A stretch of DNA of 64,000 nt from Escherichia coli (GCF_024298765.1 NZ_CP101210.1); one strand, 5' to 3'. Counted from the stretch's first letter, positions 18,242 to 22,389 are shown. Notes: generated by a model not told the origin, from the letters alone. Numbers and translations are program-made.

Positions 18242-18279
18242 AACCGTAGCACGTCGTATGCAAGATCGTGCTGCGGTTT
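18241..18279. repeat. Hairpin module copy A (13-bp stem, 13-nt loop) between pin and the GIY-YIG gene; probable bidirectional terminator
   Basis: aaaccgtagcacg (18241-18253) pairs with cgtgctgcggttt (18267-18279): 12 Watson-Crick pairs plus one G.T. Homologous to copy B at 19264-19321. Confidence 0.6.
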
Positions 18280-18298
18280 ATGCTTATCACTTAAAGAC

Positions 18299-19072
18299 TC
18301 AAAAATTAGGTGAGTAACGGACCGGGGACATAGCTCCTTTTTTTCTTAATTCATCTGGTATTTTTTTTCCAAGATAAAGATTTGCTATTTCAGGTGGGGC
18401 TTCTCGACCTTCAAAACCATAGCGAGAACTTTGTGTTGCCTCAAAGTCAGGATCCTCGTCCCAGTATTTCATCGTAGGGAAATTTTCACGTGTTGATTTG
18501 AGCCATTTATCAGCAATGAAAACCCCTCGAACGATCCCCCTTACAGTAGCAAGAATGACTTCTGCTTGGCTGGCGCGAGAGACATTAATGCGCCAGCTAA
18601 ATCGAACCGCATCATAAAGCTCTGAATCCTTTGCACTTCTGTTAACGGAAATCATTAATGCTTTATGATGAAATATTATGGTTTCGGGTTGATATGTTGC
18701 TATCAACTCTTTGACATGCGCGGCGCCGAATTCATTGCTGCCAGCACCATTCATGATATTCGTTAACCCAGGGTAGGCATCAATAAGTGCAGCTTCAACT
18801 TCGTACGCCGTCTTTTCATCAGTCATTCCGTGTCGATGGATGACATGGATAACTTCAAGTCCTGCTAACCTTATTTCTCTAATTTGCTTTAGCTTGTTGC
18901 TCAGTAACTCGTCATCATCAGTCGCTGCCACTTCACCGCGCATATGGGCAAATACGCGGTTACCTTTGCCTTTCCCTACATAGAAGGTGCTTCCGTCCCT
19001 CGGATCAATCAATCGGTATACATACCAGCCAAGGTGTTCAATTACTCCAGAAGGAAACTCAGTAATATCCAT
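18299..19072 (-). CDS. GIY-YIG nuclease-domain protein with an uncharacterised C-terminal domain (257 aa)
   Basis: The N-terminal ~110 aa carry WYVYRL...[16 protein letters not shown]...YEVEAALID...N, i.e. GIY and YIG-type hairpin motifs, a conserved Arg and a catalytic Glu. The C-terminal ~130 aa have no motif I recognise. Visibly lower GC than the flanking phage genes. Confidence 0.75.
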
Positions 19073-19107
19073 TTTGCAATATCTATGAAGAATTATTTGT
19101 GAGACGT

Positions 19108-19136
19108 ATATTAATGATCATTGCAAGGGCTCACAA
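19108..19136 (-). promoter_or_regulatory. Candidate sigma70 promoter for the GIY-YIG gene (TTGTGA-N17-TAATAT on the minus strand)
   Basis: Read on the reverse complement, with the -10 element at 19108-19113 and the -35 element at 19131-19136. A 10-bp palindrome, aatgatcatt (19112-19121), overlaps the spacer. Prediction by eye only. Confidence 0.3.
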
Positions 19137-19263
19137 CCAGTAGTGTTGAGAAAACCATCGGAGAAATGAGGCTAAGCCTTTGAATTTACATAGTACAAAA
19201 AAGATACTTTTCCTCATAATGTGAGCTAATTTTATGTTTCGTTTGATGATTGGACCGGTCTCG

Positions 19264-19321
19264 AAAACCGTAGACACATAGTATGCGTTAATTTATGAAC
19301 AAACTACTTGTCTGCTGTTTT
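19264..19321. repeat. Hairpin module copy B (13-bp stem, 32-nt loop) upstream of the methylase gene
   Basis: aaaaccgtagaca (19264-19276) pairs with tgtctgctgtttt (19309-19321), with one mismatch and one G.T. Both arms and part of the loop (gtatgc) are homologous to copy A. Confidence 0.55.
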
Positions 19322-19478
19322 TCTGTCATTAGTCGTATATAGAATGATTCTCTATGCCTAACAAAGCATCACCAGTGCTAGATTACGTTGTAGTCACTGT
19401 TTAAATATCCAGATAAAACATTTCCTTCTGGGTTGAATGAGTGATAAAGTTTCACCCATTAGACCCCTTGGAGGAATT

Positions 19479-20912
19479 ATGTCTGAATTTGAAGTGTTGG
19501 CACAGCATCTGCTGAAGGAAGCCGAGGCGGAAGAAAAGCTGCGACAGGAAAATGATAAAAAGCTTATCGAGAAAGTGCTGGAAATCTATGATCAGAAGTA
19601 TGTGGCTGAATTACTGAGAAAAGTCGGAAAAAATGAGTGGAGCCGTGAAACCATTAACCGCTGGATTAATGGCAAGTGTTTACCAAAATCGTTGACTTCA
19701 GTAGAAGAGTCTCTTCTGCGTAAGATGCTACCAGAACCACCTGCAAACCATCCGGAATATGCTTTCCGCTTCATTGACTTATTTGCTGGAATTGGAGGGA
19801 TACGGAAAGGTTTTGAGGCCATTGGAGGCCAGTGTGTTTTTACCAGTGAATGGAATAAAGATGCTGTGCGTACATACAAGGCCAACTGGTTTAACGATGA
19901 ACAGGTGCATAAATTCAATCTCGATATTCGGGAAGTCACGCTGAGTGATAAAACCGATGTATTGGAAACGGATGCTTATGCATATATTGATGAGCATGTG
20001 CCGGATCATGATGTGCTTCTTGCGGGGTTCCCGTGCCAGCCATTTAGCCTTGCTGGTGTTAGTAAGAAAAACTCACTTGGTCGTGCGCATGGTTTTGAAT
20101 GTGAAGCACAAGGAACACTTTTTTTTGACGTGGCACGTATTATACGAGCAAAAAAACCGGCAATTTTTGTGCTGGAAAATGTCAAAAATCTGAAGAGCCA
20201 TGATAAGGGTAAAACTTTCAAAGTCATTATGGAGACCCTTGACGAGCTGGGCTACGAAGTTGCCGATGCTGCAGAAATGGGAAAAAACGATCCAAAGATT
20301 ATCGATGGGAAGCATTTTTTGCCTCAGCATCGTGAACGCATTGTTCTGGTCGGATTTAGACGAGATCTGAATATTCACAAGGGGTTTACCTTGCGTGATA
20401 TCAGTCGTTTTTATCCGGAACACCGCCCATCATTTGGTGAATTGCTGGAGCCTGTAGTCGACAGTAAATATATACTTACGCCAAAACTATGGGAGTACCT
20501 TTATAACTACGCCAAAAAGCATGCAGCCAAGGGGAATGGTTTTGGCTTTGGGTTGGTCAATCCTGAGAATAAGGAAAGCATTGCACGCACACTTTCTGCC
20601 AGATATCACAAAGACGGATCAGAAATTCTTATTGATCGTGGTTGGGATATGGCAACGGGAGAGGCTGACTTTATGAATGAGAGTAATCAGGCTCGTCGAC
20701 CACGCAGGCTGACTCCCCGAGAGTGCGCACGCCTTATGGGATTTGAAAAACCTGGAGGGAAACCATTCCGTATTCCGGTTTCAGATACTCAGTCATATCG
20801 GCAGTTCGGTAACTCAGTTGTGGTGCCAGTATTTGAAGCTGTTGCCAGACTTCTGGAACCCTATATCCTCAAAGCTGTTTCTGCTGATGCTGGTAAGACT
20901 GGGCAGCCTTGA
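19479..20912 (+). CDS. ecoRIIM: DNA (cytosine-5) methyltransferase, EcoRII/Dcm type (CCWGG)
   Basis: 477 aa from ATG 19479 (GGAGG upstream). Motifs [15 protein letters not shown] (I), GFPCQPFS (IV), ENVKNL (VI) and QFGNSVVVP (X) are present. Near-colinear with M.EcoRII and K-12 Dcm as I remember them. Confidence 0.9.
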
Positions 20913-20918
20913 GAACAT

Positions 20919-20941
20919 CTCCCGGCCTTTTAAGCCGGGAG
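20919..20941. other. 8-bp-stem hairpin between the convergent methylase and endonuclease genes
   Basis: ctcccggc cttttaa gccgggag. There is no U-run on either strand, so it is not a canonical intrinsic terminator. Confidence 0.4.
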
Positions 20942-20946
20942 TCAGC

Positions 20947-22155
20947 CTATGATAGTTCAGCGTAAAGCTCTATCAGCTCAGTAATGAATGCTCCGAGCGT
21001 TATTAATTCTTCTCTAACTGCTTCTGGGTATTTTTTATGTAAAGTTGATGGTACAACGAGTCTGACACCCGCATCTTTCATTTCTCGGTATTGTGCTGAA
21101 GAAACACCTTCTTGCAGTGTAAATAAATGTACCTGATGGATTTTATCTGCTTCATTCAGTATCTGACGCCAGCGATCTTTGCAGGTGGTCTTTACTGCCA
21201 GCATACGTAAGTTTTCTACAGGAAATTCAACGTTATGATATGCCTCTGCTGAAGGAAACAGGAAATCTGGTTTTTTATTACCTTCAGTAACTGCCTGAGT
21301 GGAGAAATGCCGTAGTCCGTGCTCGATAAAAAGCTTCTCTAGGTGAAGTTCAAGTGATTTGCCTGCCCTTGATTTACGTCGATTACTGACAGAGTTGGCT
21401 AATGCAATAAACTCATCTACAGAATCGAATCCTTTCTTAATAATATCAAGAACATGTAATTCCTCGACGAGTAGAAAAATATCATACTCGACACGCCGAC
21501 GGTCAATCAGTTGCTCATCTGGATCCTTGGAGTTTTTAGCATAATGGCCAGCAGCATATTGAATAATTTCGTTTCCAGAAGGAAAACGCTTCTTCCAGTC
21601 TTCAGGAATAACATATTTATGATTTACTGGAGTTTGCTGAAGAGACAATCCGCCCAAAATTTGTCCGGCAGGGCCGGAAATTAGGGTTCCAGGTATGATT
21701 TCGCCAATAGCAGACTCGATGATATCCTCTTCATCGGGATTGACGCAGACCCATATATCTACCTCGGAACAGTCAGTGTTCTGTTCGTTTAACCTGAAAG
21801 CAAGAATTGTGAGGGCTCCTGTATTTTCAGGGTTCTGTAATGGACTTCCTCTCCCCCAGCGCGTAATTCTTTTTTCGTTTCGGGTCTTACCAAAATAACG
21901 GTTGTTGTAATAAATTGCGCGTGCTTGGGTATCAGGGCAATCATGGGATGATACATGCGCAGTAAGGAAGACTGAAGGGTTCAGTTCGCGAGTATGATTG
22001 ATAGATGGAAAAAGCTTTTCAACGATATTTGAGGGGATATAAAGTCCGACCTGATGGCCACCTGTTGCGCCTGTGTCGTTTGCAGAAAGGCGTTTGATGT
22101 AGATAAAGTAATTCCCGCTTGCGATATCAAGCAGCCAGTTATGAAAAACCGACAT
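20947..22155 (-). CDS. ecoRIIR: Type IIE restriction endonuclease EcoRII
   Basis: Lies in ORF 20947..22161. I prefer the second ATG (22155, MSVFHNWLL...), which has AAGGGA correctly spaced. The sequence follows remembered R.EcoRII almost throughout: N-terminal effector domain YIKRLSANDTGATGGHQVGLYIP and the C-terminal PD-(D/E)XK part. Confidence 0.9.
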   Translation of the reverse strand: MSVFHNWLLDIASGNYFIYIKRLSANDTGATGGHQVGLYIPSNIVEKLFPSINHTRELNPSVFLTAHVSSHDCPDTQARAIYYNNRYFGKTRNEKRITRWGRGSPLQNPENTGALTILAFRLNEQNTDCSEVDIWVCVNPDEEDIIESAIGEIIPGTLISGPAGQILGGLSLQQTPVNHKYVIPEDWKKRFPSGNEIIQYAAGHYAKNSKDPDEQLIDRRRVEYDIFLLVEELHVLDIIKKGFDSVDEFIALANSVSNRRKSRAGKSLELHLEKLFIEHGLRHFSTQAVTEGNKKPDFLFPSAEAYHNVEFPVENLRMLAVKTTCKDRWRQILNEADKIHQVHLFTLQEGVSSAQYREMKDAGVRLVVPSTLHKKYPEAVREELITLGAFITELIELYAELS

Positions 22156-22230
22156 ATACATCCCTTTGTTAACATACAGTCAGGGTTAACATTTTTCCAT
22201 AGTTATAGATAAGCGGCTAGGAACTTAAGG

Positions 22231-22264
22231 GAAAAACAAAAAGCCCGCATAAGCGGGCTTTTGT
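22231..22264. terminator. Rho-independent terminator (strong on the minus strand, downstream of ssrA; weaker on plus)
   Basis: aagcccgc ataa gcgggctt is flanked by an A-rich run on one side and a T run on the other. On the minus strand the stem is followed by tttttgttttt. Confidence 0.75.
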
Positions 22265-22389
22265 GTCACTCGAGAGCCGCGGCTCCTTTGCGTATCCTTT
22301 TTTATCTCCTCACCGTCTGGTCGGTGTCCTGCTGAGACTGCTAACTTCCTGTTTTTGTTGGTGTTGTCCTTACACCGTCCAATCATGAT

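What the first reader, a model, noticed from the sequence alone, without database searches (positions are those of the whole stretch)
18242..22389. Prophage-terminal cargo islet with defence-type content between the tail-fibre invertase and the ssrA attachment site
The virion operon ends at the invertase (18241) and ssrA starts at 22390. The ~4.1 kb in between encodes no virion or lysogeny function. It holds a GIY-YIG protein, a CCWGG methylase and the EcoRII endonuclease, separated by hairpins, and the DNA looks clearly more AT-rich than the 1-15.7 kb structural genes (by eye, not computed). In SfV/P22-type phages the equivalent position, between the tail fibre or spike genes and attP, holds the O-antigen conversion genes. 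This phage appears to use the same moron slot for nucleic-acid-targeting genes, i.e. a mini defence island that would be expressed from the lysogen.
Basis: partly seen in the sequence, partly recalled or inferred. Interest (0 to 1): 0.6.

Follow-up and report, generated by a model that had tools for sequence, protein, structure and literature searches.

The report
Two-nuclease defence cassette in SfV-like prophage
The 4.1 kb between the prophage's tail-fibre invertase and the ssrA attachment site is real phage cargo: a known nuclease that cuts T4-type modified DNA plus an EcoRII restriction-modification system, so it is a correct but fairly ordinary example of prophages carrying anti-phage genes.

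Summary

**Content.** The three genes are intact:
- The GIY-YIG protein is CMoRE/PD-T4-3, 98% identical to PDB 9U75. It is a published type IV nuclease that cuts 5hmC and glucosyl-5hmC DNA but not C or 5mC DNA.
- The other two genes form a convergent EcoRII restriction-modification cassette. The endonuclease is 86% identical to PDB 1NA6.

**Setting.**
- GC is 42.9% in the islet, against 54.6% in the structural genes.
- Three hairpins insulate the genes.
- The prophage late region is 97.8% identical to Shigella phage SfV. SfV carries gtrA/B/V in the same slot, and e14 carries mcrA after pinE.
- In a complete genome with a near-identical locus, the islet lies inside the 32-nt att repeats.

**Cargo swapping.** Related ssrA prophages hold other cargo between the same flanks:
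- GmrSD plus AbiTii;
- an LmuB-like ATPase;
- CMoRE plus HTH/ImmA/BRO;
- proteins of unknown function.

**Mobility.** The same cassette also sits behind lambdoid tail-fibre genes and in a 43.7-kb circular phage record.

**Corrections.** The last 152 nt (22238-22389) are the attP arm with a terminator, not cargo. Nearly all E. coli carry chromosomal dcm, which limits what EcoRII can restrict.

All parts are known, so novelty is low to moderate. Expression in this lysogen was not tested.

The parts
1..15815 (+). Late (head, tail, baseplate) region of an SfV-family myovirus prophage
   Evidence: 97.8% identical to Enterobacteria phage SfV positions 1207-17021. RefSeq annotation of the near-identical locus names terminase to baseplate J and YmfQ.
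15465..17660 (.). Tail-fibre and tail-fibre-assembly genes in two orientations (invertible segment)
   Evidence: Pfam Gp53-like_C, Caudo_TAP twice and Collar, on opposite strands. The layout matches e14 stfP-tfaP / tfaE-stfE.
17687..18241 (+). pinE-type serine DNA invertase; left flank of the cargo slot
   Evidence: Pfam Resolvase + HTH_7. Annotated pinE in RefSeq. The longest ORF starts at 17651.
18241..18279 (.). Hairpin between the convergent pin and CMoRE genes; a likely two-way terminator. It also marks the left edge of the cassette in lambdoid copies.
   Evidence: Folding energy -23.6 kcal/mol, z = -4.9 on the + strand and z = -3.4 on the - strand. The same hairpin follows the lambdoid tfa gene in L009-L011 and pin in L003 and L007.
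18299..19072 (-). CMoRE / PD-T4-3: GIY-YIG type IV restriction endonuclease specific for 5hmC and glucosyl-5hmC DNA
   Evidence: PADLOC PD-T4-3, E 4.7e-140, residues 1-256 of 257. 252/257 residues identical to PDB 9U75. Function from PMC12923530.
19073..19478 (.). Divergent intergenic region with three parts: CMoRE upstream region to about 19286, a unique linker at 19287-19395, and the EcoRII-cassette upstream region from 19396
   Evidence: Homology with CMoRE-only loci ends at 19273-19286. Homology with plasmid EcoRII cassettes starts at 19396. The promoter scan was not above chance.
19479..20912 (+). M.EcoRII-type C5 cytosine methyltransferase (inferred target CCWGG) with an N-terminal DNA_meth_N domain
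   Evidence: PF00145 and PF18284. NCBIfam PRK10458, 927 bits. PADLOC MTase_II. About 80% DNA identity to plasmid ecoRIIM. 69% DNA identity to chromosomal dcm.
20919..20941 (.). Hairpin between the convergent M and R genes
   Evidence: CUCCCGGCC/GGCCGGGAG stem, -16 to -19 kcal/mol, z = -1.9 and -2.3.
20947..22161 (-). R.EcoRII-type type IIE restriction endonuclease (RefSeq start at 22155)
   Evidence: PF09217 EcoRII-N and PF09019 EcoRII-C. 347/403 residues identical to PDB 1NA6 over the full length. PADLOC REase_II.
22238..22389 (.). attP arm of ssrA-integrating phages. It is not cargo. It contains a terminator hairpin (22239-22262) with a T-run on the minus strand, downstream of ssrA.
   Evidence: Shared by ssrA prophages with any cargo. 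Shared by phages LLS and Ayreon. In LLS it abuts the annotated tmRNA pseudogene and attP. Hairpin z = -6.3.
22390..22421 (.). att core: 32 nt at the 3' end of ssrA
   Evidence: A second copy with one mismatch lies at the far end of the prophage in NZ_CP027219 (L002 13282-13313). It occurs only once in the window.
22390..22752 (-). ssrA (tmRNA), the integration target
   Evidence: ARAGORN. Rfam RF00023, 295.8 bits.

Best explanation
Bases 18242-22237 are accessory cargo carried by an SfV-family temperate myovirus. The cargo sits in the phage's variable slot between the end of the tail-fibre/invertase operon and attP. The phage is integrated at the 3' end of ssrA.

**Two self-contained modules.**
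- **Module 1 (18242 to about 19286): CMoRE/PD-T4-3.** Its close homologue is a tetrameric GIY-YIG type IV nuclease.
  - A C-terminal domain binds 5hmC or glucosyl-5hmC.
  - It cuts at CN11/N9G around paired modified cytosines, destroying T-even-type phage DNA.
  - It ignores C and 5mC DNA.
- **Module 2 (about 19396-22223): an EcoRII restriction-modification cassette.**
  - The methylase puts 5mC on CCWGG and, by analogy with plasmid M.EcoRII, represses its own promoter through its N-terminal domain.
  - The type IIE endonuclease is autoinhibited until it binds at least two unmethylated CCWGG sites, then cuts.

**How the pair fits together.** They are compatible because CMoRE does not act on 5mC. 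They are complementary because one hits unmodified incoming DNA and the other hits hypermodified cytosine DNA that escapes type II enzymes.

**Insulation and mobility.**
- Hairpins at 18241-18279, 20919-20941 and 22239-22262 separate the genes from the late operon and from ssrA read-through.
- The cassette moves between phage backbones by recombination.

**Shown versus inferred.**
- Shown: gene identity, location inside the att repeats, cargo replacement, and presence in other phage backbones.
- Inferred: enzyme specificities in this allele, expression in the lysogen, and the net benefit.
For: **Gene identity.**
- PADLOC, Pfam and NCBIfam matches.
- CMoRE is 98.1% identical to PDB 9U75.
- The endonuclease is 86.1% identical to PDB 1NA6.

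**Mechanism of CMoRE (PMC12923530).**
- It degrades 5hmC and 5ghmC DNA, not C or 5mC DNA.
- It lowers T2/T4/T6 plating about 10^5-fold when expressed from its native promoter.
- It acts directly, not by abortive infection.
- Deleting PD-T4-3 in the natural isolate NILS69 sensitises it to T-even-like phages.

**M.EcoRII autoregulation:** PMC12707154.

**Cargo status.**
- The islet lies inside the att repeats.
- The late region is 97.8% identical to SfV, which has gtrV/B/A in the slot.
- e14 has pinE-mcrA-attR.
- Phage LLS has invertase, cargo, the 152-nt arm, attP, then int.
- At least six different cargo sets sit between the same flanks at ssrA.

**Mobility.**
- The islet, 99.5-100% identical, sits behind lambdoid Lom-Stf-Tfa genes.
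- It also sits in a circular 43.7-kb phage record.

**Counts among 5426 genomes.**
- CMoRE gene: 822.
- pin-CMoRE junction: 565.
- Lambdoid tfa-CMoRE junction: 129.
- Whole islet: 243.
- EcoRII-ssrA junction: 128.

**Foreign composition and hairpins:** GC 0.429 against 0.546; hairpins.
Against: - **Expression was not measured.** The consensus promoter scan was not above chance (12 sites found, 8.8 +/- 2.9 expected).
- **Chromosomal dcm limits EcoRII.**
  - dcm matches in 5366 of 5426 genomes, and the one islet carrier whose row was checked showed a second match in its chromosome.
  - Phages grown on ordinary E. coli should therefore already be CCWGG-methylated and immune to EcoRII.
  - The defensive value of module 2 may be small.
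- **Recent spread, not long-term selection.** Islet copies are 99-100% identical across strains. This shows recent spread rather than long purifying selection.
- **This prophage may be defective.**
  - Its left half is outside the window.
  - In NZ_CP027219 the related prophage has IS insertions and frameshifted tail-fibre genes.
  - Carriage by a functional phage is therefore shown only for relatives.
Confidence: 0.85

Rival explanations
1. The EcoRII cassette is mainly a selfish addiction module or a phage self-protection device, not host defence. In this reading it stabilises the prophage by killing cells that lose it. Alternatively, its methylase pre-methylates phage progeny so they survive the many EcoRII-bearing plasmids. 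This rival concerns module 2 only and can coexist with the main explanation.
For: - EcoRII-type cassettes covering at least 80% of the query are on 1927 plasmid records.
- Restriction-modification systems are described as selfish elements, and Dcm is described as protection against EcoRII parasitism (PMC3424554).
- Chromosomal dcm is near-universal in E. coli, so EcoRII can restrict few coliphages.
Against: - The same chromosomal dcm would also cancel post-segregational killing, so addiction should fail in these hosts.
- dcm already methylates phage progeny, so the phage methylase adds little.
- The endonuclease gene is intact and full length. A pure self-protection role would not need it.
Confidence: 0.25
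2. The islet is an independent integrative islet sitting at ssrA next to the prophage (tandem elements), not part of the phage genome.
For: - ssrA is a known hotspot with tandem elements. In NZ_CP027219 a second integrase island lies beyond the prophage.
- The islet's GC differs from the phage's.
Against: - There is no integrase in the islet.
- There is no att copy between pin and the islet, allowing up to 3 mismatches.
- The only other att copy lies beyond the phage integrase.
- The islet occurs inside a circular phage record.
- It occurs at non-ssrA sites, always attached to the end of a tail-fibre operon.
Confidence: 0.03
3. The genes are silent or decaying passengers of a defective prophage with no current function.
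For: - Related prophages show IS insertions and frameshifts in the tail-fibre genes.
- No expression data exist for this strain.
Against: - All three ORFs are full length, with no frameshifts, and match their reference proteins end to end.
- The islet is at least 99% identical in 252 records.
- The native CMoRE promoter works in a homologue that shares the upstream region.
Confidence: 0.07

Closest known systems
CMoRE / PD-T4-3 (E. coli O157:H7, PDB 9U75; Liu et al. 2026, PMC12923530; first found in ECOR68 by functional selection)
   Same: - 252/257 residues are identical, over the same length.
[quoted passage not shown]
- The genomic setting matches too. In EDL933 the gene also lies directly after pinE at the end of an SfV-like prophage remnant at thrW.
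   Different: - There are five amino-acid substitutions.
- Here it is joined to an EcoRII cassette and sits at ssrA rather than thrW.
EcoRII restriction-modification system of IncN-type plasmids (R.EcoRII PDB 1NA6; M.EcoRII)
   Same: - The R and M genes are convergent.
- The endonuclease has the effector and catalytic domains.
- The methylase has the N-terminal DNA_meth_N domain.
- Homology runs across the whole cassette, including the upstream regions (19396-22223).
   Different: - It is a diverged allele: 86% protein identity for R and about 80% DNA identity for the cassette.
- It is carried by prophages rather than plasmids.
- The prophage allele (at least 99% identity) is in 262 records, and 245 records hold at least 80% of the whole islet.
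Phage SfV O-antigen conversion locus (gtrA-gtrB-gtrV between tfa and attP/int)
   Same: - The phage backbone is the same (97.8% identity over 15.8 kb).
- The slot is the same: after the tail-fibre genes and before attP.
- The cargo is likewise transcribed opposite to the late operon and set off by a terminator.
   Different: - SfV cargo modifies the cell surface; this cargo cuts DNA.
- SfV has no invertase and integrates at thrW, not ssrA.
e14 cryptic prophage of E. coli K-12: pinE-mcrA-attR
   Same: - The gene order is the same (ymfQ, stf/tfa invertible segment, pinE).
[quoted passage not shown]
   Different: - McrA is an HNH enzyme acting on 5mC-type sites; CMoRE is a GIY-YIG enzyme acting on 5hmC and 5ghmC only.
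- e14 integrates in icd.
- e14 has no restriction-modification cassette.
Defence hotspots of temperate phages and satellites (for example the P2/P4 hotspots; named from my own knowledge, not checked here)
   Same: A fixed position in a conserved phage backbone holds interchangeable anti-phage systems.
   Different: - The phage family and the position differ (invertase/tfa to attP).
- I did not find this slot described as a hotspot in the searched literature.

Membership tests
CMoRE / PD-T4-3 type IV nuclease | Full-length match to the family profile | tested here: met
   PADLOC PDLC04031, E 4.7e-140, residues 1-256 against profile positions 1-255 of 256.
CMoRE / PD-T4-3 type IV nuclease | [quoted passage not shown] | tested here: met
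   Pfam LEM-3_GIY-YIG at residues 28-110. The sequence GWYVYRL...FYVGKG is identical to 9U75, and the C-terminal half is aligned end to end with 5 substitutions in total. The motif definition comes from PMC12923530.
CMoRE / PD-T4-3 type IV nuclease | Cuts 5hmC and 5ghmC DNA but not C or 5mC DNA; protects against T-even phages | not testable with these tools
   Shown for the 98%-identical O157:H7 protein. Inferred here.
EcoRII type IIE restriction-modification system | Endonuclease with an N-terminal effector domain and a C-terminal catalytic domain | tested here: met
   PF09217 at residues 18-165 and PF09019 at residues 229-393. 86.1% identity to 1NA6 over 403 residues.
EcoRII type IIE restriction-modification system | Adjacent cognate C5 methyltransferase with an N-terminal regulatory domain, in convergent orientation | tested here: met
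   PF00145 + PF18284. The M gene is on the + strand and R on the - strand, 34 nt apart. The whole cassette is about 80% identical to plasmid EcoRII.
EcoRII type IIE restriction-modification system | CCWGG specificity and a requirement for two sites | not testable with these tools
   Inferred from 86% identity to EcoRII. Not measured.
Prophage accessory cargo ('moron') in the tail-fibre-to-attP slot | Lies inside the att-bounded element and in the circular phage form | tested here: met
   att copies at window 22390-22421 and L002 13282-13313, beyond int. Present in the circular 43.7-kb phage record. Tested in related genomes, because the window lacks the left end of the prophage.
Prophage accessory cargo ('moron') in the tail-fibre-to-attP slot | Variable content between conserved flanks in related phages | tested here: met
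   Six cargo sets at ssrA, plus SfV gtr, e14 mcrA and an empty slot in phage SKA5.
Prophage accessory cargo ('moron') in the tail-fibre-to-attP slot | Own transcription signals and deviant base composition | tested here: inconclusive
   Terminator-like hairpins and low GC are confirmed. The promoter scan was not above chance.
Prophage accessory cargo ('moron') in the tail-fibre-to-attP slot | Expressed in the lysogen while the late genes are silent | not testable with these tools
   Only indirect support: the native promoter of the O157:H7 allele is active, and PD-T4-3 is active in its native host NILS69.
SfV-family phage | Collinear, near-identical head, tail and baseplate module | tested here: met
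   87% of bases 1-18241 are covered at 97.8% identity. SfI, SfII and SfIV match at 96.5-97.5%.

The most novel reading that the evidence does not exclude
The slot from the invertase (or tfa) to attP in SfV-like and lambdoid prophages at ssrA may be a general anti-phage defence hotspot. Two things would follow.

**1. Its uncharacterised occupants would be new defence systems.**
- A 343-aa protein with a predicted C-terminal OB fold, paired with a 114-aa partner.
- A 502-aa protein with no detectable relatives.
- A ParA-like trio between attP and int.

**2. Cargo would be shuttled between unrelated phage backbones by integrase-type recombination.** The proposed site is a pseudo-att inside the terminator hairpin that ends the tail-fibre operon.
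Probability: 0.35. Interest if true: 0.55.

Novelty: new member of a known kind. Interest (0 to 1): 0.3.

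Why it matters
It gives a clean, quantified example of a temperate phage arming its host with two complementary DNA-targeting defences in one interchangeable slot. One defence acts on unmodified DNA and the other on hypermodified cytosine DNA.

Practical consequences:
- About 15% of complete E. coli genomes carry CMoRE, mostly at the end of prophage tail-fibre operons. 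This matters when choosing T-even-like phages for therapy or typing.
- The conserved flanks (the pin or tfa stop codon on one side, the attP-arm terminator on the other) give a simple handle for mining further cargo. Several occupants have no known function.

None of this changes current understanding. It fits what is known from SfV, e14 and other prophage hotspots.

Tried and rejected
- **Extra att copy.** I searched the window for a third copy of the att core, allowing up to 3 mismatches, to test the tandem-islet idea. None was found. There was also none between the ParA-like gene and int in L002.
- **Sequenced phages.** A megablast of the islet against sequenced phages matched only the 152-nt attP arm. 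No sequenced phage in that collection carries the cassette.
- **Rfam.** A scan of 17600-22900 at a permissive threshold found nothing above gathering score except tmRNA.
- **Promoter and terminator scans.** Neither was significantly above the shuffled expectation: 12 against 8.8 +/- 2.9 for promoters, and 7 against 4.8 +/- 2.4 for terminators. I therefore make no promoter calls. The hairpins were judged by folding z-scores instead.
- **Literature.** Searches for a description of this islet or slot as a defence hotspot found none. In the one hit checked, EcoRII and ssrA referred to separate elements.
- **Unknown cargo.**
  - The 343-aa protein had no match in Pfam, PADLOC or PDB sequences.
  - The 502-aa protein had none in those libraries either.
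  - PHROGs gave only a family of unknown function for the 343-aa protein and nothing for the 502-aa protein.
- **Full census.** I could not intersect hit sets, so "the islet is always attached to phage genes" rests on 7 of 7 inspected copies plus junction counts, not on all 243 genomes.

Full report
**1. What is in the sequence**

The window is E. coli chromosome carrying the right-hand part of a prophage.

- The invertase ORF ends at 18241 (Resolvase + HTH_7).
- tmRNA occupies 22390-22752 on the minus strand.

Three intact genes lie between them:

| Coordinates | Strand | Product | Evidence |
|---|---|---|---|
| 18299-19072 | - | 257-aa GIY-YIG protein | |
| 19479-20912 | + | C5 cytosine methyltransferase with the DNA_meth_N domain | |
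| 20947-22161 | - | EcoRII-N + EcoRII-C endonuclease | |

Composition:

| Region | GC |
|---|---|
| Islet | 0.429 |
| Bases 1-15700 | 0.546 |
| Chromosomal part of the window | 0.508 |

GC3 is 0.36-0.39 in the three islet genes and 0.61 in the baseplate J gene.

Hairpins fold far better than shuffled controls at 18241-18279 (z = -4.9) and 22239-22262 (z = -6.3). The one at 20919-20941 is more modest (z about -2).

**2. Identity of the genes**

- **GIY-YIG protein.**
  - It matches the PADLOC PD-T4-3 model end to end (E 4.7e-140).
  - It is 252/257 identical to PDB 9U75, the E. coli O157:H7 CMoRE protein. It is 85% identical to the APEC O1 protein 9U7U.
  - The published work (PMC12923530) shows a type IV modification-dependent endonuclease. 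It binds and degrades DNA containing 5hmC or glucosyl-5hmC but not C or 5mC.
  - It cuts at CN11/N9G around two modified cytosines and forms tetramers.
  - It reduces T2/T4/T6 plating by about five orders of magnitude when expressed from its native promoter, without abortive infection.
  - A separate study found PD-T4-3 to be one of only two active defences in the natural isolate NILS69.
- **Endonuclease.** It is 347/403 identical to EcoRII (PDB 1NA6) over the full length.
- **The restriction-modification cassette.**
  - The whole cassette (19396-22223), including its upstream regions, aligns at about 80% DNA identity with the EcoRII cassettes found on 1927 plasmid records.
  - M.EcoRII is known to repress its own promoter through its N-terminal domain (PMC12707154).

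**3. Is it phage cargo?**

- **The phage.** Window 1-15815 is 97.8% identical to Shigella phage SfV. SfI, SfII and SfIV follow at 96.5-97.5%.
- **Position relative to att.**
  - In the complete genome NZ_CP027219, the islet is 100.0% identical by megablast (one base short of a perfect bit score) and the flanks are about 98-99% identical.
  - There, the 32-nt sequence at the 3' end of ssrA (window 22390-22421) recurs with one mismatch on the far side of the prophage. It lies beyond the phage integrase and a ParA-like trio.
  - No further copy lies between pin and the islet.
- **The circular form.** A 43.7-kb circular record deposited as a plasmid consists only of SfV-like phage genes. It carries tfa, an acyltransferase, CMoRE, M, R, DinI and int in one circle.
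- **Neighbours.** In all seven copies I inspected, the islet's left neighbour is the end of a tail-fibre operon.

**4. The slot**

Occupants of the slot in related phages:

| Phage | Slot content |
|---|---|
| SfV | gtrV-gtrB-gtrA between tfa and int |
| e14 (E. coli K-12) | pinE-mcrA-attR |
| SKA5 | empty: invertase, hairpin, DinI, int |
| LLS | invertase, HTH/ImmA/BRO cargo, the 152-nt stretch, annotated tmRNA pseudogene/attP, one gene, int |

The 152-nt stretch in LLS is the one that also ends this islet. So 22238-22389 is the attP arm, not cargo.

A query made of the two flanks alone (5 kb each side) recovered related prophages at ssrA with different inserts:

| Cargo | Locus |
|---|---|
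| CMoRE + EcoRII | this window |
| CMoRE + HTH/ImmA (capH/capP-like) + BRO-N | L003 |
| GmrSD-type type IV enzyme + AbiTii | L006 |
| 870-aa SMC/LmuB-like ATPase | L005 |
| 343-aa + 114-aa operon, unknown function | L004, L018 |
| Single 502-aa protein, unknown function | L017 |

Every variant ends at the same hairpin (AAAAAGCCCGC...GCGGGCTTTT), whose stem shows paired base changes between variants. Its T-run is on the ssrA strand, so it most likely terminates ssrA transcription after integration. This last point is an inference.

**5. Modular build and mobility**

- **Boundaries.**
  - Homology with CMoRE-only loci (L003; EDL933 CP-933H at thrW) ends at 19273-19286.
  - Plasmid EcoRII homology begins at 19396.
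  - The islet is therefore CMoRE plus an added restriction-modification cassette.
- **Counts among 5426 complete genomes.**

| Feature | Genomes |
|---|---|
| CMoRE gene | 822 |
| pin-CMoRE junction | 565 |
| Lambdoid tfa-CMoRE junction | 129 |
| Whole islet | 243 |
| EcoRII-ssrA junction | 128 |

- **Other backbones.** The identical cassette follows Lom-Stf-Tfa of lambdoid prophages at ssrA. It also occurs at other sites.
- **A possible transfer route.**
  - Copies away from ssrA keep the attP arm plus the first 23 nt of the core. They then switch into the SKA5-type hairpin sequence.
  - The switch point lies in a stretch that resembles the core (TTGAAaCCGCagcc against TTGAACCCGCGTCC).
  - I read this as integrase-type recombination at a pseudo-att. 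It could equally be illegitimate recombination at microhomology. This is an inference.

**6. How it most likely works**

In the lysogen, CMoRE would destroy incoming DNA carrying hydroxymethylated or glucosylated cytosine. EcoRII would cut incoming DNA carrying at least two unmethylated CCWGG sites. The resident genome would be protected by M.EcoRII. The two systems are compatible because CMoRE ignores 5mC.

An important limit is chromosomal dcm, which is 69% identical in DNA and has the same target site.
- It matches in 5366 of 5426 genomes.
- The one islet carrier whose row I checked showed a second match in its chromosome.
- Phages propagated on ordinary E. coli should therefore already be resistant to EcoRII.
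- dcm should equally cancel any addiction effect (PMC3424554).

The benefit of module 2 is therefore uncertain. The benefit of module 1 is well grounded.

**7. Comparison and novelty**

- Both systems are known.
- The slot is the known accessory position of SfV and e14.
- The genes are already annotated in RefSeq.
- I found no paper describing this cassette or naming this slot a defence hotspot.

I therefore file it as a new member of a known kind, with modest interest.

**8. Leads beyond the finding**

The unknown cargo proteins are the most promising by-product.
- The 343-aa family is confined to Enterobacterales, and every named member is called 'hypothetical'.
- In Enterobacter a homologue also sits at the outer edge of a lambdoid prophage.
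- The model predicts a C-terminal OB fold.

Noticed in passing
L004 5427-6854 (NZ_CP019359) and L018 5520-6947 (NZ_CP121294); the same slot as window 18242-22237: The commonest alternative cargo is a 343-aa + 114-aa operon of unknown function.
- It has no Pfam, PADLOC or PDB sequence match.
- The family is confined to Enterobacterales.
- In Enterobacter a homologue also sits at the outer edge of a lambdoid prophage.
- The AlphaFold model (pLDDT 75) shows a C-terminal OB fold.

It is a candidate new defence gene pair.
   Followed up: partly
L017 5262-6770 (NZ_CP134384), same slot: A single 502-aa protein fills the slot. It has no match in Pfam, PADLOC, PHROGs or PDB sequences.
   Followed up: partly
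L002 13404-15326 (NZ_CP027219); L015 3712-4527 (phage LLS): There is a second variable position, between attP/attL and the integrase. It holds a ParA-like ATPase plus 137-aa and 221-aa proteins of unknown function in the prophage, and a 271-aa protein of unknown function in phage LLS.
   Followed up: partly
L008 8100-8210, L009 8100-8210, L012 32160-32260; compare window 18242-18278 and 22390-22421: Islet copies away from ssrA keep the attP arm and the first ~23 nt of the ssrA core, then switch into the terminator hairpin of an SKA5-like backbone. In those copies the cassette is flanked by two copies of that hairpin. This suggests capture by recombination at a pseudo-att site.
   Followed up: partly
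window 22239-22262: A strong hairpin with its T-run on the ssrA strand lies 128 nt past the ssrA 3' end, inside the phage-derived attP arm. It probably replaces the native ssrA terminator. Its stem shows paired substitutions among related prophages.
   Followed up: partly
L007 7037-8422 (EDL933, CP-933H at thrW): The crystallised O157:H7 CMoRE gene itself lies directly after pinE at the end of a degraded SfV-like prophage at thrW. The published enzyme is therefore prophage cargo in the same slot.
   Followed up: yes
L012 26636-27556 (NZ_CP081794): In the circular phage record, an acyltransferase gene sits between tfa and CMoRE. It may be O-antigen modifying. If so, surface-conversion and defence cargo can share the slot.
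   Followed up: no
L002 4111-13116 (NZ_CP027219): Beyond the prophage's far att copy lies a second integrase island with IS3 copies and truncated genes. ssrA therefore carries tandem elements in that strain.
   Followed up: no
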